In this document: positions 2,653 through 39,152 of the stretch, piece by piece | Layout of the letters: each line of letters opens with the position of its first letter | Numbering within the stretch: position 1 is the stretch's first letter | From: Alicyclobacillus sp. | GTDB taxonomy: Bacteria > Bacillota > Bacilli > Alicyclobacillales > Alicyclobacillaceae | Length of the DNA stretch: 64,000 bases | Assembly (NCBI GenBank): GCA_023511295.1 | Contig: JAIMBT010000019.1 | Coordinates: 4,241 to 68,240, forward strand | Direction of reading: 5' to 3' | Notes under the pieces: model-generated | Databases searched by the model: none | The model's input: the letters and a program-made list of their open reading frames with translations, nothing else | What the model was told of the DNA's origin: nothing | Program-made: the position numbers and the translations under genes

Positions 2653-2957
2653 CCGGGGTGAGTGAACGCCTCACGGAGGAACAGGTCGCAGAGGCGCTGA
2701 CGCGGTTGCCGAATTGGAAGTTGGAGGGTAAGCAGATCTATCGACGCTACGCCTTTCCTTCGTTCCCTGCGGCGATAGCGTTTGTCAACCAGGTTGCGCA
2801 ACTTGCAGAATCGTGGAACCATCACCCGTTTATCCAGATTGACTTCAAGTACGTGGTGCTCCGGCTCACCTCCTGGCATGCCGGAGGTCTCACCATGAAG
2901 GATTTCGACGAGGCGCAGGCGTTCGACGCGGTGTACGACGAAACCTGGCCGTCATAG
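2649..2957 (+). CDS. Pterin-4a-carbinolamine dehydratase (PCD/DCoH family)
   Basis: 102 aa. GTG 2649 overlaps the RidA stop (GTGA). The motif ...FVNQVAQLAESWNHHPFIQIDFKYVVLRLTSW... is typical of PCD. Confidence 0.85.
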   Translation: MTGVSERLTEEQVAEALTRLPNWKLEGKQIYRRYAFPSFPAAIAFVNQVAQLAESWNHHPFIQIDFKYVVLRLTSWHAGGLTMKDFDEAQAFDAVYDETWPS

Positions 2958-3029
2958 GGCCCGGGGTGTTTGTCGTGCAGGTTCCGTCTGAGGTGTCAAA
3001 CCATCCCGTCAGCGGGGGAGGAACGGCTC

Positions 3030-4463
3030 GTGGAGCATGCGATGAAGATGTCGGACACAGATTATCGGCTGGAATTGGCGGCGTTGATTGAGAGTCGGCG
3101 GGAGACGTTTACCGACCTGAGTGATCACATCTGGGATTTGGCGGAGACGCGGTTTGAGGAGTTCCAATCCGCGGAATTGCTGTGTCAGGCGCTGGAGGCC
3201 GAAGGGTTCCACGTCGAGCGCGGTGTCGGCGGGATGGAAACCGCGTTCATCGGGCAATATGGCAGCGGTTCGCCGGTCATCGCCATCCTCGGCGAGTTTG
3301 ACGCACTGAGTGGATTGAGTCAGAAACCGGGTGTCACGGCGAAAGATCCGCTGGAGCCCGGCGGCAACGGTCACGGTTGCGGGCACAACCTGCTGGGAAC
3401 GGGCGCTCTCGCCGCCGCGGTGGCCGTGCGCCGGTATATGGAAGCGCACGAATTGCCCGGCACCGTTCGGTACTACGGCTGCCCGGGCGAAGAAGGCGGG
3501 TCCGGCAAGGCGTTCATGGCGCGCGCAGGGCTGTTCGACGACATCGACGTCTGTTTCACGTGGCACCCCGCGTGGGTGAACGGGATTATGGAAGCCAGTT
3601 CACTCGCCAACTACCAGGTCTACTTCAAATTTCACGGGGTCAGCTCACACGCGGCTGGCTCGCCGCATCTTGGGCGCAGCGCCCTCGACGCGGTGGAGTT
3701 GATGAACGTTGGCGTCAATTACCTGCGCGAACACGTCATCCCGGAGGCGCGGATGCACTACGCGGTGACCAACAGCGGCGGGCGTTCGCCGAACGTGGTG
3801 CAGTCGGAGGCCGAAGTGCTGTACCTACTGCGGGCGCCAAAGGTTTCACAGGTCGAAGAGATCTACCAGCGGGTGTGCGACATCGCCCGCGGTGCGGCGC
3901 TGATGACAGGCACGCAGGTTGACATCGTCTTCGACAAGGCGTGTTCAAACCTTGTCCCGAACCGAACGCTGGAGCAGGTGATGCACCGCCATTTCACAGC
4001 GCTCGGCCTGCCCGAGTACACGCCGGAGGAGGAGGCGTTTGCGCAAGGACTGGTCGACAGCCTATCGGAACAGGAGCGCAGGGTGATCTCCGCCGTTGCG
4101 CCGGATCTGATGGGCAAGGGCATCGCAGACGGAATCCGCCCGCTGGACGGACCGCCCCGTGGCGGGAAGGGGTCCACCGACGTTGGCGACGTGAGCTGGA
4201 TTGCACCCACCGCGCAGTGCCAGACGGCAACCTGGGCCGTCGGCACGCCCGGCCACTCGTGGCAGGTGGTGACCATCGGCAAGACGTCCATCGCGCACAA
4301 GGGCATGCTCCAGGCCGCCAAGGTGATTGCGGCGTCTGCCGTTGAGGTGCTGACCAACCCGGAGATTGTCGAGACCGCCAAGGCCGAGTTGCGGGAACGG
4401 CTGAACGGTGCATCGTACGTCTGTCCCATTCCGCCGGACGTTCAACCTTCCGCGGTGAAGTGA
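3030..4463 (+). CDS. abgB: M20-family amidohydrolase, AbgB-like (p-aminobenzoyl-glutamate hydrolase subunit B family)
   Basis: Strong resemblance along the length to E. coli AbgB as I recall it (IWDLAETRFEEF, GEFDALSGLSQ, GHGCGHNLLGT, YGCPGEEGGSGK, STDVGDVSW). Start set at GTG 3030, 7 nt after GGGGGAGGA. ATG 3042 is the alternative. Confidence 0.85.
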   Translation: MEHAMKMSDTDYRLELAALIESRRETFTDLSDHIWDLAETRFEEFQSAELLCQALEAEGFHVERGVGGMETAFIGQYGSGSPVIAILGEFDALSGLSQKPGVTAKDPLEPGGNGHGCGHNLLGTGALAAAVAVRRYMEAHELPGTVRYYGCPGEEGGSGKAFMARAGLFDDIDVCFTWHPAWVNGIMEASSLANYQVYFKFHGVSSHAAGSPHLGRSALDAVELMNVGVNYLREHVIPEARMHYAVTNSGGRSPNVVQSEAEVLYLLRAPKVSQVEEIYQRVCDIARGAALMTGTQVDIVFDKACSNLVPNRTLEQVMHRHFTALGLPEYTPEEEAFAQGLVDSLSEQERRVISAVAPDLMGKGIADGIRPLDGPPRGGKGSTDVGDVSWIAPTAQCQTATWAVGTPGHSWQVVTIGKTSIAHKGMLQAAKVIAASAVEVLTNPEIVETAKAELRERLNGASYVCPIPPDVQPSAVK

Positions 4464-4471
4464 CCCGGAGC

Positions 4472-4698
4472 ATCGTCCACGCAGGCTGTCCACAGGGTTA
4501 TCCACCGAGTTGCCCACAGCAAGTTGTGGACAACTCGGGGAACGCCTGGTTGCTGTGAGATTCCTGCTTTTCGAAGCGATGTCGGCGGGACTCGGCTGTG
4601 TACAAATTGGGGATAAACACCCGGGTTATCCACAGAATCCGCCGGTTCTGCACAACCTGTGCACACGGTTTCCACAGGTTTTGCACCGATTGTGCAGA
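4472..4698. promoter_or_regulatory. Cluster of about 11 DnaA-box-like 9-mers, including one perfect TTATCCACA and a 5-unit array with 11-bp period
   Basis: Boxes read directly from the sequence (coordinates in the findings). They fill the 258-bp intergenic gap between 4463 and 4722. Confidence 0.55.
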
Positions 4699-4721: not shown

Positions 4722-5354
4722 GTGCAACGGTCGTTGTTTCGGGAATTTGCAACGTTTCCGGACATCCTGGTGATGACCGGACTGTCTGTCTGCGGTTGGG
4801 TGTTCACGTTTTGGCACGCGCCGGATGGACGGGTCTGGGTCGGGCTGGTGGCGGGGATGGCCGCGTACGCTGTGATGGAGTACGTGACGCACCGGTTTCT
4901 CTTTCATCGGAAACCGCCGAAGCGTGCGTGGCTCCAGCGGTTTCTGAAGCGGATTCACTACGACCACCACGTGGACCCAAGCAATCTGAAACTGCTGTTC
5001 TTGCCGGTGTGGTACAGCCTTCCCAACATCGCGGCGGCCTCCGCCATCTGTGCACTCGTCACGAGGAGTGGCGTAGCCACAGGTGGGTTCGTGACCGGGA
5101 TTTGCACGTTTTTGCTCTACTACGAGTGGACGCACTATCGAGCTCACCGACCCATCCGTCCCATTACGCCGTGGGGACGCTGGATGAAAAAAGTGCATCT
5201 TTGGCACCACTTCAAGAATGAGAACTACTGGTTCGGCGTCACCCACCCCGGGATGGACGTTCTGCTGGGGACGTGGGCAGACGAGCGCAGCGTGCCGCGC
5301 AGTCAAACCGCAAGAGACCTGGAGCATCGCATGCCCACGGACGTGGATGCATGA
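4722..5354 (+). CDS. Fatty acid hydroxylase / sterol desaturase superfamily membrane di-iron protein
   Basis: Histidine boxes HRFLFH, HYDHH and HLWHH with hydrophobic segments. Start set at GTG 4722, 8 nt after GGGGAGG. The track ORF begins at 4659. Confidence 0.75.
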   Translation: MQRSLFREFATFPDILVMTGLSVCGWVFTFWHAPDGRVWVGLVAGMAAYAVMEYVTHRFLFHRKPPKRAWLQRFLKRIHYDHHVDPSNLKLLFLPVWYSLPNIAAASAICALVTRSGVATGGFVTGICTFLLYYEWTHYRAHRPIRPITPWGRWMKKVHLWHHFKNENYWFGVTHPGMDVLLGTWADERSVPRSQTARDLEHRMPTDVDA

Positions 5355-5462
5355 GGGTGGCTCGCAGGGTGGTCGGCCCCGTGCCGGTGGGTGGCCTTTT
5401 CGGAAAGGCGATCTCGTGGGGCAGAGTGAGAGCAAGATTGGGCAAAGGGAAGAGGGGGCCAT

Positions 5463-7046
5463 ATGAGCGTGTCATTCCAAGGCGGCCGGTCGGCGGATGG
5501 GCAGGGACCCGACGCCGCGGTCGCGGGGGGTGCGGACATCAGCGAGGCGGCGGTTGCACAGGTCTACGAGCGAGCTCGAACATCCGCCGCGATATGGGCG
5601 CGCACGCCGCTGCCCGCACGAATCGCCTGCCTGCGTCGCCTGCGCGAGCGGGTTGTAGACCTGCGAGATGAGATTGCGGATGTCCTCCACGCCGATACCG
5701 GAAAGCCACACGTCGAGGCGCTTGCCACCGAGGTGTTGGTGGTTCTGGAGTCGCTGCAGAGTGTCGAGCGACACGCGGCAAAGTGGCTGAAAACGCAGCG
5801 CGTGCCGACACCCGTCTCGCTGTTCGGCAAACGGTCCTACGTGTCGTACAAACCTCGCGGCACCGTCCTCGTGATTGCACCGTGGAACTTCCCCTTCCAA
5901 CTTTCGATGATCCCGGTGGTGGAGGCGCTGGCTGCCGGAAACAGCGTTATCCTCAAGCCTTCCGAAGTGGCTCCTCAGGTGGCGTCGACGATGGCGGCTC
6001 TGTTTCGCGATGTCCTCCCAGATGTGCACCTGGTGCAGGTGGTGACGGGGGGACCTGAGACCGGCGCTCGACTGGTGGCGGCTGGGCCGGACTTCATCCA
6101 CTTCACAGGGTCTGTCCGCGGGGGGAAGGCCGTTCAGCGGGCGGCGGCGGAGCAGTTGATTCCAACGAACCTGGAACTCGGGGGCAAGGACCCGATGCTG
6201 GTGTTCGCGGACGCTCCGCTGGAGCGGGCCGTGCATGGTGCGCTGTGGGGCGGACTCTGCAACTGCGGCCAGGTCTGCATGTCGGTCGAAAGGCTGTACG
6301 TGGAACGCCCCATCTATGCGTCGTTCGTCAACGCTCTCGTCCGGGAAGCGGCGCGCCTGCGCGGACCACACCTGGATGGAAACGGCGCGGACGGACGAGC
6401 CCTCGCCCCCGACGAAGTCGACATCGGCCCGCTGACCACCGTGGCGCAGTGGCAGACGGTTCGTCGCCACGTGTCACAGGCGTTGTCAGCCGGCGCGAAG
6501 TTACGGCTTGGCAACCCGCCTGAGCTGTGGGATGTGCGGCAGCGGACGGTCGTGCCCATGATTGTGACCGACGTCCCAGCGGATGTCGATCTGATGCAGG
6601 AGGAAACCTTCGGACCGGTCCTACCGGTGGTCCCTTTCGACTCAGAAGAGGAGGCGGTGCGCCTCGCCAACGGGTCTCGTTTTGGCCTCAGCGCGAGCGT
6701 CTGGACGTCGGACCTGGAACGCGGTCGGCGGGTGGCCGAACAGCTGCAGGCAGGGAGTGTATGCATCAACGACGTCATGCTGGCGATTGCGAACCCGAAC
6801 CTGCCATTTGGCGGGGTGAAGGAAGGGGGCATCGGCCGCTATCACGGCGCCGAAGGGCTGCGAGCGTTCTCGATTCAGACATCTGTCGTCCAGTCTTCTC
6901 CGAGCAATCGCCGCGAGGTGAACTGGTTCCCCTACGCGGGAAAGCGTCCCGTGCTATCTGCCCTCATCCGTGACGGTTACGGGCGACGCCGCAACTGGGC
7001 AGGCTTCGTGAAAGCGTACCTGGCCTTGCTTCGGTTGTCCAGGTAG
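5463..7046 (+). CDS. Aldehyde dehydrogenase family protein
   Basis: 527 aa. Motifs VIAPWNFPF, ELGGKDP and catalytic-Cys region CNCGQVCMSVERLYV. ATG is preceded by AGAGGGGG. Confidence 0.9.
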   Translation: MSVSFQGGRSADGQGPDAAVAGGADISEAAVAQVYERARTSAAIWARTPLPARIACLRRLRERVVDLRDEIADVLHADTGKPHVEALATEVLVVLESLQSVERHAAKWLKTQRVPTPVSLFGKRSYVSYKPRGTVLVIAPWNFPFQLSMIPVVEALAAGNSVILKPSEVAPQVASTMAALFRDVLPDVHLVQVVTGGPETGARLVAAGPDFIHFTGSVRGGKAVQRAAAEQLIPTNLELGGKDPMLVFADAPLERAVHGALWGGLCNCGQVCMSVERLYVERPIYASFVNALVREAARLRGPHLDGNGADGRALAPDEVDIGPLTTVAQWQTVRRHVSQALSAGAKLRLGNPPELWDVRQRTVVPMIVTDVPADVDLMQEETFGPVLPVVPFDSEEEAVRLANGSRFGLSASVWTSDLERGRRVAEQLQAGSVCINDVMLAIANPNLPFGGVKEGGIGRYHGAEGLRAFSIQTSVVQSSPSNRREVNWFPYAGKRPVLSALIRDGYGRRRNWAGFVKAYLALLRLSR

Positions 7047-34393: not shown

Positions 34394-35278
34394 ATGGCGC
34401 TGGCACAACCGTCGCTCGAACCAACCTCGGCTGTGCGCGTCCGCCGACACAGCCGCTTTCGGGCCATGCTCCGCAACCGGCAACTGGTGATTGGCGGCAT
34501 CATTGTGGCGGTGGTGCTCCTGGTCGCCATCTTCGCAAACCTCATCAGCCCGTACGACCCGAACACCCCGGCCTATTCGGACATCCTCAAAGGTCCATCG
34601 GCCAGCCATTGGTTTGGCACGGACCAACTCGGGCGGGATGAGCTGGCCCGTATCTTCATCGGTGCGCGGACCTCAATGACGGTGTCCATCGGTGCGCTGA
34701 TTGTCGGGCTCATCATCGGCGTGCCGCTGGGGCTCGTCAGTGGGTTCTACCGCGGGTTTTGGGACGACTGGATCATCATGCGCATCATCGACGCCATGCA
34801 GGCTTTCCCGTTTCTGATTCTCGCGTTGGTGATGGCTGCCATGCTGGGCCCTGGCGAGCGGAACGCGATGATTGCCATCGGGATTGGCTACGTGCCGGTC
34901 TTCGTCCGCATTGTCCGCGGGCAGGTGCTCGGGGAGTTGGAGAAGGAGTTCGTCAGCGCCGCGCGCATGGTGGGGGCGTCGGACGCACGGATTATGTGGC
35001 GGCACATCCTGCCCAACATCACCACGCCGTTGATTGTGCAAATGACGATCGCCATGGCGTCTGGTATCATTGCGGAAGCGAGCTTGAGCTACCTGGGGTT
35101 AGGGGTCTCTCCGCCGACGGCCAGTTGGGGTACGATGCTCCACGACGCGCAGGGGTACCTCGGGCAAGCGACGTATTTGGCTGTGATACCCGGTGTCGCC
35201 ATCGGAATTGCGGTTCTCGGGTTCAACCTGTTCGGCGACGGGTTACAGCAGTGGTTGGATCCGCGTAAGCACAACTGA
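34394..35278 (+). CDS. Peptide ABC transporter permease (DppC/GsiD-like)
   Basis: ATG 34394 lies 1 nt after the preceding stop. Motifs ...HWFGTDQLGRDELARIFIGARTS... and an EAA-like loop. Confidence 0.9.
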   Translation: MALAQPSLEPTSAVRVRRHSRFRAMLRNRQLVIGGIIVAVVLLVAIFANLISPYDPNTPAYSDILKGPSASHWFGTDQLGRDELARIFIGARTSMTVSIGALIVGLIIGVPLGLVSGFYRGFWDDWIIMRIIDAMQAFPFLILALVMAAMLGPGERNAMIAIGIGYVPVFVRIVRGQVLGELEKEFVSAARMVGASDARIMWRHILPNITTPLIVQMTIAMASGIIAEASLSYLGLGVSPPTASWGTMLHDAQGYLGQATYLAVIPGVAIGIAVLGFNLFGDGLQQWLDPRKHN

Positions 35279-35327
35279 GCGGCGTTCGCGTTCTCGGGGT
35301 CACAGTCTGGGAGAGGGGATCTGCACC

Positions 35328-36932
35328 ATGTTCGATGCACATACGTATCCGTACGCGTCCCGGCGCACGGTGGTGTACGCGCGGCGCGGGATGGTCGCAA
35401 CGGGCCATCCGCTGGCTGCACAGGCCGGCCTCACGATTCTGCAGCAGGGTGGTAACGCGATTGACGCGGCGGTCGCCACGGCTGCAGCCTTGACCGTCGT
35501 GGAACCGACAGCCAACGGCATCGGGTCCGACGCGTTCGCAATTGTCTGGACAAACGGTCAGCTGCACGGCTTGAATTCGAGCGGACCGGCACCCCAGTTG
35601 CTCGACATCCCGACTTTACAGAGAAAAGGTCTGACCGAGATGCCGAGCGAGGGCCTCATCCCTGTCACGGTACCGGGGGCACCGGCGGCGTGGGCGGCAC
35701 TCGTCGAGCGGTTCGGCCGGCTGTCGCTCCGGCAGGTGCTGGCGCCGGCGATTGCACTGGCGGACGAAGGGCATGCGGTGGCGCCGACCGTGGCACGCGG
35801 TTGGACGGCGAGCGCCAAGCGCTTTGCGGACCTGCTCCGGGGCGACGAGTACCGCGGCTGGTTCGACACCTTCGCACCCGATGGGAAGGGCCCCGCGGCT
35901 GGCGACATCGTGCGGCTGCCCGACCACGCGCGAACGCTCCGGGCGATAGCGGAGACCGGTGCGCGTGACTTCTACGAGGGGGAGATTGCGGAGCGGATAG
36001 ACGCCTTCTTCCGAGCGCACGGAGGTTACCTGCGAAAGTCCGACCTGGAGGCGTTCCAGCCGGAGTGGGTGCAGCCGATCTCCGTCCGCTACCGCGGCTA
36101 CGACGTCTGGGAGATTCCGCCGAACGGGCAAGGTATCGTCGCGCTCATGGCGCTGAATATCTTGAACGGGTTCGAGTTCACAGAGCGCGAGACGGTCGAG
36201 ACCTACCACAGACAGATGGAGGCCATCAAACTGGCGTTTGTTGACGGCAAGCACTACGTGACAGACCCGCGCAAGATGCGCGTGTCGGTCGAGGAGCTGC
36301 TGTCGCCGGCGTACGCAGCGGATCGGCGGAAGTTGATTGGCGAGATGGCGCTGGAGCCGGAACCCGGTCGTCCACGGGCCAGCGGTACGGTGTACCTGGC
36401 GGCTGCTGACGGCGACGGCAACATGATTTCGTACATTCAGAGTAACTACAAAGGGTTTGGCTCTGGCATCGTCGTGCCGGGGACCGGGGTTGCGATGCAA
36501 AACCGGGGGCACACGTTCTCGCTCAATCCCACCCACGCGAACGCACTGGAGCCGGGCAAGCGCACCTACCACACCATCATCCCAGGCTTCCTGACCAAGG
36601 ATGGGCAGCCGGTCGGGCCATTTGGTGTGATGGGCGGTTACATGCAACCGCAGGGACATGTGCAGGTCGTATCCAACCTGGTCGACTTCCACATGAACCC
36701 TCAGGCGGCGCTTGACGCACCGAGGTGGCAGTGGCTGGAAGGCAAGAGGTTCACGGTGGAGCGGGCGGTGCCAGATCACATCGTGGATCAGCTGGTTCGC
36801 CGCGGTCACCAGATTCAGGTCACGCACGACGGTGGCAGCTATGGACGTGGACAGGTGATTGTGCGGATGCCGAGCGGATCCCTCGCCGGCGGAACGGAGC
36901 CACGGACGGACGGGCACATCGCGGCGTGGTAG
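35328..36932 (+). CDS. ggt: Gamma-glutamyltransferase
   Basis: Trimmed to ATG 35328 after GGGAGAGGGGA. Contains GMVATGHPLAAQAG, the autoprocessing region ...GTVYLAAADGDGN..., and GGYMQPQGHVQV. Confidence 0.9.
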   Translation: MFDAHTYPYASRRTVVYARRGMVATGHPLAAQAGLTILQQGGNAIDAAVATAAALTVVEPTANGIGSDAFAIVWTNGQLHGLNSSGPAPQLLDIPTLQRKGLTEMPSEGLIPVTVPGAPAAWAALVERFGRLSLRQVLAPAIALADEGHAVAPTVARGWTASAKRFADLLRGDEYRGWFDTFAPDGKGPAAGDIVRLPDHARTLRAIAETGARDFYEGEIAERIDAFFRAHGGYLRKSDLEAFQPEWVQPISVRYRGYDVWEIPPNGQGIVALMALNILNGFEFTERETVETYHRQMEAIKLAFVDGKHYVTDPRKMRVSVEELLSPAYAADRRKLIGEMALEPEPGRPRASGTVYLAAADGDGNMISYIQSNYKGFGSGIVVPGTGVAMQNRGHTFSLNPTHANALEPGKRTYHTIIPGFLTKDGQPVGPFGVMGGYMQPQGHVQVVSNLVDFHMNPQAALDAPRWQWLEGKRFTVERAVPDHIVDQLVRRGHQIQVTHDGGSYGRGQVIVRMPSGSLAGGTEPRTDGHIAAW

Positions 36933-36936
36933 GAAA

Positions 36937-37011
36937 GCGGTAGGATTGCGGCAGGATTGCGGTAGGATTGCGGTAGGATTGCGGTAGGATTGCGGTAGGA
37001 TTGCGGTAGGA
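36937..37011. repeat. 11-bp microsatellite (GCGGTAGGATT), about 6.8 copies
   Basis: Units at 36937, 36948 (GCGGCAGGATT), 36959, 36970, 36981 and 36992, plus a partial unit at 37003. It starts 5 nt after the ggt stop. Confidence 0.9.
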
Positions 37012-37411
37012 AGGGAACGCGGTTCCGTTGTTGGTCGAACCTCGGCGGGAGGGGCAGGCCGATAAGGGAACCGCGTTCCGCTGTGTAGCGGGCGGGGGGC
37101 GGATGGAGCAGCGTTCCGGGGCGGCTACGGCCGAACAAGGGAACGCCGTTCCGCTATGGGCGGCAGGAAGGGGCGTCCGTGTGCCGATAAGGGAACCGCG
37201 TTCCGCTGTGTGGCGGGCTGGGGGCGGATGGAGCAGCGTTCCGGGGCGGCTCCGACCGAACAAGGGAACGCCGTTCCGTTGTTGGTCGAACCTCGGCAGG
37301 AAGGGGCGTCCGTGTGCCGATAAGGGAACCGCGTTCCGCTGTGTAGCGGGCTGGGGGCGGATGGAGCAGCGTTCCGGGGCGGCTACGGCCGAACAAGGGA
37401 ACGCGGTTCCG
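37011..37411. repeat. Three tandem units (125 and 133 bp apart) with a 95-bp core, carrying seven AAGGGAAC-N3-GTTCCG palindromes
   Basis: Cores at 37059-37153, 37184-37278 and 37317-37411 differ at only 2-4 of 95 positions by my alignment. Palindromes start at 37011, 37064, 37136, 37189, 37262, 37322 and 37395. Confidence 0.9.
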
Positions 37412-37547
37412 TTAGGCTCGACCGGGGATGGGGCCCTGAATATGTGCCTTCGCGCAAATTTTCATGTGACAACTGTCAACAATCGGGCTGGCCCTCGATA
37501 TAGTTATAGCAATATTCCGCCACATGTACTGGGATGGAGGGACGCGG

Positions 37548-39152
37548 ATGAAACGGGGCGCGCAGCGGTTGGGGTTCGCGGCGGTGGTGGTGACGGCTTC
37601 GGCGGTGCTGGTCAGTGCCTGCGGTGGTGCAGGCGGGGCGACGAGTGGCAATTCCGCAAACGGAGCCAACGGCGGAGGGAGCGCGGCGACCAACATGGCC
37701 GCTTCAGGGGCGACCGCGGTGTCCAACCGAACCGAGTTGGACATCGGGCTGACCGCGTACCCCATCACGATGGATCCGCTGACATCGAGCGCGTGGTTTG
37801 ACCGGCAAGTGATGTACAACATCTACGACACGTTGTTCCAGCTGGGTCCCCAGAATCAGATTGAACCGGACCTCGTCCAGTCATACACCGTGTCTCCCGA
37901 CGGGAAGACCTACACTTTGAACTTGCACACGGGCATCACCTTTCAGGACGGCACGCCGTTCAACGCGGCCGCGGTCAAGTTTAACCTCGAGCGGTACATG
38001 GGCCCAACGTCGACCTCGCGCAGTGCGTTGACCAGCATCGCCAGCATCGACACGCCGGATGATCACACGGTTGTCATCCACCTGAAGCAGCCGTTCAGCC
38101 CGCTGTTGTCCATCCTGACAGATCGGGCTGGGATGATGGTGTCCCCGACCGCCGTGCGGAAGGAGGGCAAGAACTTCGGGCTCGATCCGGTCGGAACCGG
38201 TCCCTTCGAGTACAAGAGCAGTCTGCAGGGAGACCACATCACGCTGGTCAAGAATCCGCACTACTGGCAGCCGAATGAACCGAAACTGGATATGCTGGTG
38301 TTCAAGGCGTTCACGGACCCGAATGTGGAGCTGCAAAACCTGGAGAGCGGTGCCGTGCAGATCATCGACTCTGTCCCTCCGCAGCAGGTGCAGTCCTTGG
38401 AGCAGAACCAGAATTTCCGGGTCATCAGCCAGCCGAGTTGGGCGTGGGCGGGGTATGGACTGAACACCCAATCGGGTCCGTTCAAGAACCTGTACTTGCG
38501 GGAGGCGGTGAACGAGGCGATTGACCGGAGTGCCCTGGTGCGTGTGGTGTTGGACGGCCAAGGCGTCCCTGGCTTCAGCGCGCTCAGCCCCGCATCCCCT
38601 GGCTACGACAAGCAGGCGGACACGGCGCCGGCTCCGAACCCGGCCGAGATCAAGGGGCTCCTTGCGAAGGGCGGTGAACCAAACGGGTTCTCGTTCACGC
38701 TGAAGACGTTGGCGAGTGACCAACTGACGGCGCAAACCGTCCAGTCGATGCTTGCACAGTACGGAATTCAGATGAAGATTGACACCTTGGACGCCGCAGC
38801 GCTCGGGGCGGCACAGGACAACCACAACTTCGACGCCATTCTCGAGGGCTGGTCTGGGCGGCTTGATCCAGACCAAAACATGAGCCAGTACTTCTACACG
38901 AATGGTCCGCTCAACTGGGTCGGTTACAGCAATCCCGAGGTCGATCAACTGTTGACTCAGGCGCGCGCGCAGCAGTCCATGGCGGACCGGCAAAAAACGT
39001 ACGCCGAGATCACCGCCATCCTGCAGCACGACGCCCCGGCTGTCTTCCTGTACCACAAGAACAACATCCTCGCGATGGCGGCAGACGTTCAGGGGTTTCC
39101 GTACCGATCCGACGGCATGGTCCGCGCGGCCACCGTGTACTTCGGCCATTAG
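37548..39152 (+). CDS. Second ABC transporter substrate-binding lipoprotein, family 5
   Basis: Trimmed to ATG 37548, 7 nt after GGAGGG. Signal MKRGAQRLGFAAVVVTASAVLVSACGG. Clearly paralogous to the 31674 SBP (shared blocks ...FQDGTPFNAAAVKFNLER..., ...MMVSPTA...). Confidence 0.9.
   Translation: MKRGAQRLGFAAVVVTASAVLVSACGGAGGATSGNSANGANGGGSAATNMAASGATAVSNRTELDIGLTAYPITMDPLTSSAWFDRQVMYNIYDTLFQLGPQNQIEPDLVQSYTVSPDGKTYTLNLHTGITFQDGTPFNAAAVKFNLERYMGPTSTSRSALTSIASIDTPDDHTVVIHLKQPFSPLLSILTDRAGMMVSPTAVRKEGKNFGLDPVGTGPFEYKSSLQGDHITLVKNPHYWQPNEPKLDMLVFKAFTDPNVELQNLESGAVQIIDSVPPQQVQSLEQNQNFRVISQPSWAWAGYGLNTQSGPFKNLYLREAVNEAIDRSALVRVVLDGQGVPGFSALSPASPGYDKQADTAPAPNPAEIKGLLAKGGEPNGFSFTLKTLASDQLTAQTVQSMLAQYGIQMKIDTLDAAALGAAQDNHNFDAILEGWSGRLDPDQNMSQYFYTNGPLNWVGYSNPEVDQLLTQARAQQSMADRQKTYAEITAILQHDAPAVFLYHKNNILAMAADVQGFPYRSDGMVRAATVYFGH

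What the first reader, a model, noticed from the sequence alone, without database searches (positions are those of the whole stretch)
36926..37411. Composite tandem-repeat block after ggt: 11-bp microsatellite fused to three ~125-133-bp units carrying seven GGAAC-N3-GTTCC palindromes
Right after the ggt stop there are 6.8 copies of GCGGTAGGATT (36937-37011). The last copy merges into a larger repeat. Its 95-bp cores (37059-37153, 37184-37278, 37317-37411) differ at only 2-4 positions. The spacers (30 and 38 bp) are themselves related (…GGCAGGAAGGGGCGTCCGTGTG).

Each core starts and ends with the palindrome AAGGGAAC-N3-GTTCCG. That gives seven copies in 400 bp, at alternating spacings of about 53-60 and 72-73 bp. 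The ORF-track 'proteins' here (MFGRSRPGTLLHPPPAR… three times on the minus strand) are translations of the repeat, not genes.

The near-identity of the copies implies recent duplication or concerted evolution. Possible functions: an array of binding sites for a dimeric regulator upstream of the second binding-protein gene (37548), tandem structured RNAs, or a local expansion of a REP-like dispersed element. The microsatellite could vary in copy number (phase or length variation).
Basis: seen in the sequence. Interest (0 to 1): 0.6.

Follow-up and report, generated by a model that had tools for sequence, protein, structure and literature searches.

The report
Phased palindrome repeat array with nuclease partner
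The repeat block after ggt is one of about 26 copies of a genome-wide family of evenly spaced 23-bp palindrome arrays, and this family, like its counterparts in many related spore-formers, starts right behind the gene of a small uncharacterised nuclease with a DNA-binding domain, which is probably its partner enzyme.

Summary
Window 36928-37011 holds 7.6 copies of an 11-bp unit, fused to 3.1 copies of a 125-133-bp unit (37011-37413). That unit carries seven GGAAC-N3-GTTCC palindromes.

The block is not a private operator for the neighbouring transporter gene. The palindrome (A-Y-A-R-S-GGAAC-N3-GTTCC-S-Y-T-R-T) occurs 106 times in this 3.4-Mb Alicyclobacillus-type genome. It forms about 26 intergenic arrays with the same 52/73-bp spacing.

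The same palindrome forms 50-52 or 62-bp arrays in Alicyclobacillus ferrooxydans, Cohnella, Paenibacillus and Gordoniibacillus. In A. ferrooxydans the spacers of different arrays are unrelated, yet the period stays 51-52 bp.

No RAYT (Y1 transposase) is present. Instead, a 220-aa protein with a DUF559/Vsr-like nuclease domain and a MarR-type winged helix sits directly in front of one array (contig C30). Its homologues across Bacillales are followed within 3-50 bp by arrays of lineage-specific palindromes at the same periods, often ending in a microsatellite. All eight GGAAC-associated proteins share one recognition-helix motif.

My reading is a REP/RAYT-like repeat system with an unrelated enzyme. 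I found no description of it in the papers searched. The enzyme-repeat link is inferred from position, not shown biochemically.

The parts
35193..36932 (+). ggt (gamma-glutamyltranspeptidase). Its stop codon TAG (36930-36932) lies inside the first, degenerate microsatellite copy.
   Evidence: PF01019, E 5.8e-156; ORF list; sequence
36928..37011 (.). 11-bp microsatellite (GCGGTAGGATT / GGTAGGATTGC), 7.6 copies. It marks one edge of the array, and its last copy runs into the first palindrome.
   Evidence: TRF; the repeat finder family D2. Short tandem repeats are enriched next to arrays genome-wide.
37011..37413 (.). Tandem array, 3.1 units of 125-133 bp. Each unit is palindrome, 73 bp, palindrome, 52-60 bp. 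It belongs to the genome-wide GGAAC array family.
   Evidence: TRF; nhmmer profile hits at C18:41301-41654; family listing
37014..37026 (.). Palindrome core 1 (GGAACGCGGTTCC)
   Evidence: (C18:41254)
37067..37079 (.). Palindrome core 2 (GGAACCGCGTTCC), with flanks ATAAG...GCTGT
37140..37152 (.). Palindrome core 3 (GGAACGCCGTTCC), with flanks ACAAG...GCTAT
37192..37204 (.). Palindrome core 4
37265..37277 (.). Palindrome core 5
37325..37337 (.). Palindrome core 6
37398..37410 (.). Palindrome core 7 (last). About 20 nt of spacer-like sequence follow before unique DNA begins.
37476..37504 (+). Promoter-like site (TCAACA-17-TATAGT) between the array and the binding-protein gene. The array lies upstream of it, not over it.
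   Evidence: consensus match only
37524..39152 (+). Family-5 extracellular solute-binding protein gene. It is a neighbour, not part of the element.
   Evidence: PF00496, E 6.5e-89

Best explanation
SHOWN: The block is a gene-less member of a dispersed family of tandem arrays. Each array is built from a 23-bp palindrome (AYARS-GGAAC-N3-GTTCC-SYTRT) set at fixed distances of 52 and 73 bp, giving a 125-bp unit.

SHOWN: One array of the family starts about 100 bp after the stop codon of a 219-aa gene at contig C30:7052-7711. The protein has a DUF559/Vsr-like PD-(D/E)xK nuclease domain and a C-terminal MarR-type winged helix. In most homologue loci I examined across Alicyclobacillaceae and Paenibacillaceae, the gene is followed within 3-50 bp by arrays of its own lineage-specific palindrome. 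The periods are 50-53, 61-62 or their sums (104-125), and a microsatellite often sits at the far end. In Ammoniphilus, Salipaludibacillus and Effusibacillus only ATAA...TTAT-type palindromes, not clear arrays, lie near the gene.

INFERRED: The winged helix reads the palindrome as double-stranded DNA, and the nuclease domain cuts or nicks nearby. Repair then duplicates the palindrome together with a fixed length of flanking DNA, about five helical turns. This would build and homogenise arrays, throw off short tandem duplications at the array edge (the 11-bp microsatellite here), and seed new arrays elsewhere. The system would work like REP/REPIN with RAYT, but with an unrelated enzyme.

The block after ggt would therefore be a by-product of that system, not a device serving ggt or the transporter gene.
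For: Family and spacing:
- 106 palindromes fall in clusters spaced 52/73.
- An iterated profile finds about 88 units in 26 arrays.
- Copies within an array are 87-96% identical, while spacer cores of different arrays are 42-45% identical (shuffled 35-38%).
- In A. ferrooxydans ten arrays all have a period of 51 or 52. Their spacers are no more alike than shuffled sequence (0.342 against 0.338).

Sequence, not structure, is conserved:
- The outer five stem positions show no covariation (85.3% paired against 85.1% shuffled).
- In this genome, mixed half-sites are commoner than matched ones (49 against 18 of 106, with 35 matched expected).

Partner gene:
- A neighbour-gene clustering picked out one family next to arrays in five species.
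- Pfam gives DUF559 at 22.3 bits (cut-off 20.6) and MTES_1575 at 31.1 bits.
- The AlphaFold model has pLDDT 89. It matches the DUF559 structure 3hrl (TM 0.75 normalised to target) and MarR-type winged helices.
- Both copies in this genome are followed by arrays: C30 by the GGAAC family, and C34:30249-30908 by a 42-bp x 14.8 array plus an 8-bp x 11.8 microsatellite.
- One A. ferrooxydans copy ends 4 bp before a 51-bp x 12.5 GGAAC array.
- Genome G015 has 137 copies of a different 23-bp palindrome (ATAAGSCGG-N5-CCGSCTTAT) in 52-bp arrays. None of the 40 other relatives has such an array (one has a single one-mismatch site), and these arrays flank G015's only copy of the gene on both sides.
- Eleven of 16 Paenibacillaceae loci have an array or short tandem repeat near the gene. 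In eight of these a palindrome array abuts the 3' end, with periods 50, 51, 62, 62, 112 x3 and 268.
- Tandem repeats cover 9.7% of 12 gene loci against 0.3% of 17 control loci from the same genomes (10/12 against 2/17 loci).
- A genome with only two GGAAC palindromes has one of them 2 bp after a family gene.
- All 8 GGAAC-associated proteins carry S-[DT]-[KR]-[FYH]-A-R at the start of the predicted recognition helix, and 0 of 29 others do (the motif was defined after looking).
- On the tree the GGAAC label needs 5 changes against 7.4 in shuffles (10 of 500 as low).
Against: - No binding, cutting or repeat dynamics has been measured, so the link rests on adjacency.
- The gene family is in 83 of 101 sampled Paenibacillaceae species and 16 of 41 Alicyclobacillales genomes. 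Most of these lack GGAAC arrays, so presence or absence carries no information. Dispersal to many loci is seen in only a few genomes.
- The palindrome after the stop codon could simply be the gene's own terminator or operator, which later spread by recombination.
- The array in the window has no copy of the gene nearby.
- The array in the window has off-phase spacings (53 and 60), and other arrays show 75, 79 and 95. The length rule is therefore not absolute.
- The recognition-helix motif was defined post hoc, and the eight proteins represent only two or three independent lineages.
Confidence: 0.6

Rival explanations
1. The repeat is passive REP-like selfish or neutral DNA with no dedicated enzyme. 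The arrays grow by replication slippage and unequal crossing-over at hairpin-forming palindromes. The nuclease gene only happens to carry the same palindrome as its terminator or operator, or it is a mobile cassette that prefers to land beside such arrays.
For: Copies within an array are near-identical, which is typical of concerted evolution. Loop triplets occur as reverse-complement pairs (TGA/TCA, CGC/GCG, GCC/GGC) within one genome and even within one array, as hairpin-mediated template switching would give. An IS110-family element has inserted precisely into one palindrome in Cohnella luojiensis, so other mobile DNA targets these sites.
Against: Slippage alone does not explain a constant 51-52-bp period over unrelated spacers in ten arrays. 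It also does not explain why two unrelated palindromes in different genera share the 52-bp period, or the recognition-helix motif shared by all GGAAC-associated proteins. In most loci the arrays lie only on the 3' side, starting 3-50 bp after the stop. That does not fit a cassette dropped into a pre-existing array.
Confidence: 0.2
2. The arrays are host-useful docking platforms. A protein, either the winged-helix nuclease acting as a binder or another factor, would bind cooperatively on one face of the DNA. Sites 5, 6 or 7 helical turns apart would organise or insulate intergenic DNA, for example in front of the rRNA operons.
For: Spacing classes of 51-52, 62 and 72-73 differ by about 10.5 bp, and 125 bp is about 12 turns. 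Half-site sequence is conserved without stem covariation. Arrays precede several rRNA operons.
Against: Distribution is very patchy: 2 of 25 genera in the family, and 3 of 201 sampled Paenibacillaceae species with 7 or more copies. That is unlike a housekeeping function. Arrays lie in all gene orientations with no recurrent neighbour. The nuclease residues (D69, E82, D84, H89 in the C30 protein) are nearly invariant, which argues for catalysis rather than mere binding. Off-phase spacings exist, including in this block.
Confidence: 0.1
3. The function is at RNA level. The arrays would be transcribed as 3' tails of upstream genes and act as terminators, as barriers to exonucleases, or as a repeat RNA that binds the nuclease in the manner of a type III antitoxin.
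For: The block begins at the ggt stop codon, and no canonical terminator follows ggt. Two palindromes score as weak terminator-like sites. Arrays start right after the stop codon of the family gene. The plus-strand RNA folds better than shuffles (z -6.9), as any palindrome array would.
Against: There is no Rfam match. Outer stem positions do not covary. Arrays also lie between divergent genes. Spacing steps of 10-11 bp have no RNA rationale. The protein is a DNA-nuclease fold with a DNA-type winged helix. Type III antitoxin arrays lie upstream of an RNase toxin, not downstream of a DNase-like gene.
Confidence: 0.07
4. The block is a local operator array for a dimeric regulator of the downstream solute-binding-protein gene.
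For: The block lies about 60 bp upstream of a promoter-like site for that gene.
Against: The same palindrome and unit occur at about 26 unrelated loci with unrelated neighbours.
Confidence: 0.02

Closest known systems
REP / BIME / REPIN elements with their RAYT (TnpA-REP, Y1 HUH) transposases (Nunvar 2010, PMC2817692; Bertels and Rainey 2011, PMC3116915; Di Nocera 2013, PMC3733652)
   Same: Both are short GC-rich imperfect palindromes, about 100 extragenic copies per genome. Both are homogeneous within a genome and differ between lineages. Both form clusters made by tandem reiteration of the palindrome with flanking DNA (described in PMC3733652, read). In both, a single-copy or low-copy enzyme gene abuts its own repeats, and other insertion sequences target the palindromes. 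A Saprospiraceae genome even has a true RAYT flanked by an almost identical core, TATAGCGGAAC-N3-GTTCCGCT.
   Different: There is no Y1 transposase in this genome or in A. ferrooxydans. No homologue of the Saprospiraceae RAYT exists in ten carrier genomes. There is no conserved GTAG or CGTC tag. Units are head-to-tail rather than alternating. The period is fixed at 5, 6 or 7 helical turns over unrelated spacers. The adjacent enzyme is a PD-(D/E)xK nuclease with a winged helix, and arrays lie mainly on its 3' side.
CRISPR arrays
   Same: The geometry is alike: a 23-bp palindromic repeat separated by about 28-29 bp of 'spacer', strictly regular, at several loci per genome.
   Different: Spacers within an array are 82-97% identical copies of each other, not unique. 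No cas genes are linked. The genome has a separate, ordinary CRISPR array with a different 32-bp repeat on contig C35.
Type III toxin-antitoxin loci (ToxIN, CptIN, TenpIN)
   Same: Both pair a tandem array of short repeats with a small nuclease gene.
   Different: There the array lies upstream, is transcribed as antitoxin RNA and is processed by an RNase toxin, at one locus per system. Here the arrays lie downstream of a DNase-fold gene, carry DNA-type palindromes, and are dispersed to dozens of gene-less loci.
Tn7 TnsA and AF1548-type proteins (restriction-endonuclease fold followed by a winged-helix-like domain); DUF559 protein NGO0050 (PDB 3hrl)
   Same: The domain order is a nuclease followed by a C-terminal DNA-binding domain. 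3hrl matches the nuclease domain (TM 0.75 normalised to target).
   Different: The matches to TnsA, AF1548 and Bax1 are weak (TM 0.2-0.3). No TnsB- or TnsC-like partners were seen, and no transposon ends are defined.
DUF559-nuclease genes bracketed by 51-52-bp repeat arrays in actinobacteria and other phyla
   Same: The nuclease superfamily, the gene-next-to-own-array layout and the 51-52-bp period are the same.
   Different: Those proteins have the DNA-binding (AbiEi-type) head at the N-terminus, whereas here the winged helix is C-terminal. Those notes are unchecked leads, and one was later priced low for the enzyme-drives-repeat reading.

Membership tests
REP/BIME-RAYT (REPIN) system | Short (20-40 bp) imperfect palindromes in high copy number, extragenic | tested here: met
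   A 23-bp palindrome with 106 exact cores, all in gaps between coding-like ORFs
REP/BIME-RAYT (REPIN) system | A RAYT (Y1 HUH transposase, PF01797) gene in the genome, flanked by its REPs | tested here: not met
   PF01797 six-frame search found 0 hits in G000 and G018, although 23 of 41 relatives and 6 control genomes scored. The RAYT of a Saprospiraceae genome has no homologue in ten carrier genomes.
REP/BIME-RAYT (REPIN) system | Conserved GTAG or CGTC tetranucleotide at one end of the palindrome (Di Nocera 2013) | tested here: not met
   The flank consensus is A-[TC]-A-[AG]-[GC]. GTAG appears only in some A. ferrooxydans arrays.
REP/BIME-RAYT (REPIN) system | BIME or REPIN layout: neighbouring REPs in inverted orientation | tested here: inconclusive
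   By flank asymmetry the two palindromes of the unit in this window point the same way. The rRNA-upstream arrays do contain inverted pairs. The 97-bp core hits both strands of the profile about equally.
CRISPR | Unique spacers between repeats | tested here: not met
   Spacers within an array are 82-97% identical and 96-100% identical in this window.
Structured RNA family (Rfam) | Match to a curated covariance model, or covariation supporting a fold | tested here: not met
   There is no Rfam match above noise. The outer stem is 85.3% paired against 85.1% in shuffles, with a covariation score of 0.116 against 0.113. The inner 5 bp are invariant by the way the sites were collected.
Type III toxin-antitoxin | Repeat array upstream of, and co-transcribed with, an endoribonuclease toxin; one locus per system | tested here: not met
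   Arrays lie downstream of a DUF559/Vsr-fold gene and at about 26 gene-less loci.
Operator array of a local transcription factor | Sites confined to the regulon of one regulator near the regulated gene | tested here: not met
   The sites are genome-wide, and neighbours share no family.
LexA (Cheo) box of Bacillales, GAAC-N4-GTTC | Four-base spacer between GAAC and GTTC (from my own knowledge of the B. subtilis SOS box) | tested here: not met
   The spacer is three bases in all 106 copies.
Nuclease-partnered phased palindrome arrays (proposed here; not a published family) | A DUF559-plus-winged-helix gene followed within about 50 bp by an array of the same palindrome that is dispersed in the genome | tested here: met
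   G000 C30 gene with a GGAAC array. A. ferrooxydans C25 gene with a GGAAC array. G015 gene with its own 137-copy palindrome. The array in the window itself has no gene next to it.
Nuclease-partnered phased palindrome arrays (proposed here; not a published family) | The protein binds or cuts its palindrome | not testable with these tools
   The only evidence is indirect: a recognition-helix motif shared by 8 of 8 GGAAC-associated proteins and 0 of 29 others, and nearly invariant acidic and histidine residues in the nuclease domain.

The most novel reading that the evidence does not exclude
Bacillales would carry a previously undescribed enzyme-dependent repeat system. A 220-aa Vsr/DUF559-fold nuclease reads a 23-bp palindrome with its C-terminal winged helix. 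By cutting beside it, the enzyme duplicates the site together with a measured length of flanking DNA (five, six or seven helical turns). This would build CRISPR-like regular arrays, leave microsatellites at their ends, and in some lineages scatter them to dozens of intergenic sites, including rRNA promoter regions. It would be a second, mechanistically independent invention of the REP/RAYT lifestyle. The gene family occurs in about four of five Paenibacillaceae species.
Probability: 0.4. Interest if true: 0.85.

Novelty: new variant of a known kind. Interest (0 to 1): 0.7.

Why it matters
REP-type repeats are the commonest unexplained non-coding DNA of bacteria, and only one enzyme family (RAYT) has been tied to them, almost entirely in Gram-negative bacteria.

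This repeat family sits in Gram-positive spore-formers and has no RAYT. It has a strict length rule that holds even where the spacer sequence is unrelated. It also has a specific, testable candidate enzyme of a different fold.

If the link holds, three things follow:
- It gives a function to a widespread 'DNA-binding response regulator / DUF559' gene family.
- It explains many false CRISPR calls and assembly breaks in these genomes.
- It offers a model for how a nuclease can generate tandem arrays and microsatellites.

A. ferrooxydans and several Cohnella and Paenibacillus carriers are cultured strains, so the idea can be tested directly.

Tried and rejected
- **Rfam.** A scan of the block at a permissive threshold gave only noise.
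- **RAYT / Y1 transposase.** Absent.
- **IS110 family as driver.** The genome has one copy, with no palindrome at its ends. Only one of 12 IS110 loci in carrier genomes sits in a palindrome.
- **Recurrent neighbour genes within G000 alone.** Only ABC-transporter paralogues turned up. The partner gene emerged only when loci of other species were pooled.
- **Long-hairpin (REPIN-like) fold of the 97-bp core.** z-scores are only -1.2 to -1.5.
- **Stem covariation.** None found.
- **LexA/Cheo box.** Wrong spacer length.
- **CRISPR.** Spacers are not unique.
- **Presence/absence co-occurrence of gene and GGAAC arrays.** Uninformative, because the gene family is nearly ubiquitous in Paenibacillaceae.
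- **Strain-level copy-number comparison.** Length variation of the microsatellite and the array therefore remains untested.
- **Literature searches**. These found no description of this repeat family or of a DUF559-repeat partnership. The library searched is incomplete.
- **Microsatellite enrichment in the second data set**. The 9-fold excess may be no more than the intergenic baseline. I rely on the G000 figure instead: about 10 distinct short repeats within 120 bp of 26 arrays, against about 87 in the whole genome.
Full report
**1. The observation**

The sequence at 36926-37411 is as described.
- Tandem Repeats Finder reports an 11-bp repeat at 36928-37011 (7.6 copies, 94% matches). It also reports a 133-bp-period repeat at 37011-37413 (3.1 copies).
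- The direct-repeat tool gives three 120-nt copies with start spacings of 125 and 133.
- The three 95-bp cores are 95.8-100% identical.
- Seven GGAAC-N3-GTTCC cores start at 37014, 37067, 37140, 37192, 37265, 37325 and 37398, giving spacings of 53, 73, 52, 73, 60 and 73.

The upstream gene is a gamma-glutamyltranspeptidase, and its TAG stop (36930-36932) lies inside the first, degenerate microsatellite copy. The downstream gene is a family-5 solute-binding protein. A promoter-like site lies between the array and that gene. The ORFs over the block are translations of the repeat.

**2. The block is not unique**

The whole assembly (3.43 Mb, 62.4% G+C, 42 contigs) holds 106 copies of GGAAC-N3-GTTCC. 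Almost all sit in clusters with alternating 52- and 73-bp spacing. An iterated nhmmer profile finds about 88 units in 26 arrays.

The conserved motif is 23 bp long, A-[TC]-A-[AG]-[GC]-GGAAC-N3-GTTCC-[GC]-[CT]-T-[AG]-T. Arrays lie in gaps between genes in tandem, convergent and divergent orientation. Their neighbours share no gene family.

Several contig ends are arrays. One contig (C2) starts inside the 16S rRNA gene and shows a 270-bp-period array of the same palindromes just upstream of the rRNA leader. At least three other contig ends (C23, C26, C34) carry the same junction.

A local operator for the transporter gene can be set aside.

**3. What is conserved and what is not**

Units within an array are near-identical. 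Between arrays only the palindromes and the distances are kept.
- Spacer cores of different arrays are 42-45% identical, against 35-38% for shuffled sequence.
- The outer five 'stem' positions do not covary (85.3% paired against 85.1% in shuffles).
- In this genome, mixed half-sites (AGC on one side, AAG on the other) are commoner than matched ones (49 against 18 of 106, with 35 matched expected).

Half-site sequence, rather than hairpin stability, is therefore what is kept.

Loop triplets are nearly fixed within a genome and come as reverse-complement pairs: CGC/GCG and GCC/GGC here, TGA/TCA in A. ferrooxydans, sometimes within a single array. This suggests recent intragenomic spread and occasional hairpin-mediated loop inversion.

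**4. Relatives**

Among 40 related genomes only one other, Alicyclobacillus ferrooxydans TC-34, has the palindrome in numbers (about 77 copies). There it forms arrays with a 51- or 52-bp period.

A scan of one genome per prokaryotic species for two such palindromes 49-79 bp apart found several carriers: A. ferrooxydans, six Cohnella species, four or five Paenibacillus species, Gordoniibacillus and a Bacillota MAG. It also found unrelated look-alikes. One look-alike is a Saprospiraceae genome in which an almost identical core is a true REP flanking a RAYT gene.

In a sample of 201 Paenibacillaceae species, only three have seven or more copies. The family is therefore rare and patchy.

Across the Bacillales loci the spacings are 50-52 (n=167), 61-62 (n=12) and 71-72 (n=2). 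With the 52/73 of this genome, the classes differ by about 10.5 bp, that is five, six and seven helical turns.

In A. ferrooxydans ten arrays all have period 51 or 52, although their spacers are no more alike than shuffled sequence (0.342 against 0.338). Identity within an array is 0.76-0.91. A length rule therefore holds independently of sequence.

The rule is not absolute. This block has 53 and 60, and other arrays have 75, 79 and 95.

**5. No RAYT**

A six-frame search with the Y1 transposase model PF01797 found nothing in this genome or in A. ferrooxydans. It did score in 23 of 41 relatives and in the control genomes. The Saprospiraceae RAYT has no homologue in ten carrier genomes.

The single IS110-family element of this genome is unrelated to the palindromes. 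In Cohnella luojiensis, however, an IS110 element has inserted exactly into one palindrome.

**6. A candidate partner**

I pooled the ORFs around arrays from all carrier species and clustered them. One family lay next to arrays in five species, including this genome.

The G000 member (C30:7052-7711, 219 aa) ends about 100 bp before the array at C30:7809-8281. Degenerate half-sites start about 25 bp after the stop.
- Pfam gives DUF559 (22.3 bits, cut-off 20.6) and the related restriction-endonuclease-like MTES_1575 (31.1 bits). NCBIfam gives nothing.
- Public records name homologues 'DNA-binding response regulator', 'helix-turn-helix domain-containing' or 'DUF559 domain-containing'. Some have precomputed MarR-type hits on the C-terminal part.
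- An AlphaFold model (mean pLDDT 89.4) matches the DUF559 structure 3hrl over the nuclease domain (TM 0.75 normalised to target). It matches many MarR-family winged helices over the C-terminal 70 residues. Matches to AF1548, Bax1 and TnsA are weak.
- D69, E82, D84, H89, R104, N106, W113 and R117 are invariant or nearly so in 24 homologues.

**7. The gene-array pairing is general**

In 41 Alicyclobacillales genomes the gene occurs in 16. In the loci fetched, it is almost always flanked by tandem repeats.

| Locus | Flanking repeats |
|---|---|
| G000, second copy (C34:30249-30908) | 42-bp x 14.8 array, then 8-bp x 11.8 microsatellite. This 42-bp family also occurs at one or two other places. 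|
| A. ferrooxydans, C25 copy | Ends 4 bp before a 51-bp x 12.5 GGAAC array, followed by a 12-bp x 10 microsatellite |
| A. ferrooxydans, other two copies | Other array types |
| G015 | 52-bp arrays on both sides |
| G006 | 53/106-bp arrays on both sides |
| G016 | 61-bp x 7.5 array plus a perfect 11-bp x 6.9 microsatellite |
| G005 | 51/114-bp array |

The G015 palindrome, ATAAGSCGG-N5-CCGSCTTAT, is also 23 bp long and shares the outer ATAAG...CTTAT. It occurs 137 times in that genome in 52-bp arrays on many contigs. None of the other 40 genomes has such an array; one has a single one-mismatch site. This is an independent replicate of the situation in this genome, with a different site and the same period.

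In carrier Paenibacillaceae there are 4-15 gene copies per genome.
- Eleven of 16 loci have an array or short tandem repeat near the gene. In eight of these a palindrome array abuts the 3' end, with periods 50, 51, 62, 62, 112 (three times) and 268. A different palindrome goes with each paralogue.
- P. sinopodophylli has a 112-bp x 2.9 array right after the gene. Ammoniphilus, Salipaludibacillus and Effusibacillus have ATAA...TTAT-type palindromes beside it.
- Tandem repeats cover 9.7% of 12 gene loci, against 0.3% of 17 transposase loci from the same genomes and 0.68% of this genome.
- One Paenibacillaceae genome has only two GGAAC palindromes, and one of them starts 2 bp after a family gene.

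**8. Cognate specificity**

Each of the eight GGAAC-carrier species examined has one paralogue followed by GGAAC palindromes, always on the 3' side. All eight carry S-[DT]-[KR]-[FYH]-A-R at the start of the predicted recognition helix. None of the 29 paralogues with other repeats does; the nearest are STKHAQ and ENRFAR.

On a maximum-likelihood tree the label needs 5 changes, against 7.4 in shuffles (10 of 500 as low). The Paenibacillaceae members lie in one clade, and the two Alicyclobacillaceae members lie in one six-member subclade.

The motif was defined after looking, and the eight proteins represent few independent lineages. This is supportive evidence, not proof.

**9. The microsatellite**

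Of about 87 short-period repeats in the genome, about 10 distinct ones lie within 120 bp of the 26 arrays, and more lie within 500 bp. Even if every short repeat were intergenic, this is roughly an eight-fold excess.

The order gene, array, microsatellite recurs at G000 C30 and C34, A. ferrooxydans C25, Cohnella yongneupensis and G016. In the pooled loci of other species the excess may be no more than the intergenic baseline.

In this window the 11-bp unit resembles both the last codons of ggt (GCGTGGTAGGA) and the left flank of the first palindrome (GCGGTAGGAAGGGAAC). It looks like an amplified junction.

**10. Reading**

Shown:
- The block belongs to a dispersed family of phased palindrome arrays.
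- The family lacks a RAYT.
- A DUF559 winged-helix gene abuts arrays of this kind in most loci examined in Alicyclobacillaceae and Paenibacillaceae. Ammoniphilus, Salipaludibacillus and Effusibacillus show only palindromes near the gene.

Inferred:
- The winged helix reads the palindrome.
- The nuclease cuts nearby, and repair duplicates the site with a measured flank.
- This builds, homogenises and spreads the arrays and leaves microsatellites at their edges.

The main rival is that the repeats are passive slippage products and the adjacency reflects the gene's own terminator or operator. Lesser rivals are a host-useful docking platform and an RNA-level role.

**11. Earlier notes of this scan**

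These are unchecked AI notes.
- One identifies the genome as an uncultured Alicyclobacillus.
- One describes a helically phased palindrome element in Paenibacillus-family species.
- Several describe DUF559 genes bracketed by 51-52-bp arrays in actinobacteria and other phyla.
- A later check of one such case kept the observation but priced the 'enzyme propagates the repeat' reading at 18 in 100.

I reached the gene from the repeat side before reading those notes. They agree with the layout and the period, and they temper my confidence in the mechanism.

**12. Limits**

There are no read-level data, no close strains, no expression data and no biochemistry. The literature library is incomplete. 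I found no paper describing this repeat family or its partner.

Noticed in passing
Outside the window: G000 contigs C2:765-1576, C23:6-277, C26:65875-66511, C34:154296-155058 (also C11:46-764 and C36:16-528): Arrays of the same palindrome family with a 270-bp higher-order period lie just upstream of the rRNA operon leader. C2 starts inside the 16S gene in antisense, and these arrays account for several contig ends. Their distal edge carries a 10-bp motif (GCCAGCCAAA / CGACAAAACC) whose copy number varies from about 2 to 10 between the paralogous copies.
   Followed up: partly
Outside the window: G000 C34:30249-31755: A second paralogue of the DUF559 winged-helix gene is followed by a different 42-bp x 14.8 array (unit with CGATC-N5-GATCG) and an 8-bp x 11.8 microsatellite. 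The same 42-bp family sits at the end of C4 and the start of C25.
   Followed up: partly
Outside the window: G000 C12:59370-61544: A PadR-like regulator plus membrane-protein gene pair is bracketed by two arrays of the same subtype, as if the pair had been inserted into, or captured between, one array.
   Followed up: no
Outside the window: G000 C35:46474-49302: An ordinary CRISPR array (repeat GTTTCAATCCACGCCCGCGCACGGCGGGCGAC, unique spacers) coexists with the palindrome arrays.
   Followed up: no
L012 (Cohnella luojiensis NZ_SOMN01000011.1) 2910-4620: An IS110-family element (PF01548/PF02371; the transposase appears frameshifted at its N-terminus) has inserted exactly into one palindrome (AATAG | IS | CGGAACGGGGTTCCGCTATT). 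It lies between the array and the DUF559 winged-helix gene.
   Followed up: partly
L044 (Saprospiraceae MAG CAZNYK010000018.1) 5074-6401: A RAYT gene (PF01797, 35.5 bits) is flanked by REPs with a core nearly identical to the Bacillales palindrome (TATAGCGGAAC-N3-GTTCCGCT). Three REP copies are inserted in frame inside the RAYT ORF (repeated IAELRSA).
   Followed up: partly
L017 (Methanobacteriota MAG JAUWIL010000084.1) 4097-4407: A roughly 50-bp-period array of hairpins has constant flanks (ATGTTTGC...GCAAC) but variable, compensating stems (GGAAC, AAAAT and others). It looks like a different, structure-conserved repeat.
   Followed up: no
L032 and L085 (A. ferrooxydans arrays): Within a single array the loop alternates between TGA and TCA (reverse complements) while the spacers keep one orientation. 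This is a signature of loop inversion at an extruded hairpin.
   Followed up: no
G021 and Paenibacillaceae genomes: The DUF559 winged-helix family is multi-copy (up to 20 per genome), and several copies carry internal stop codons. That profile fits mobile or decaying selfish genes better than a housekeeping regulator.
   Followed up: no
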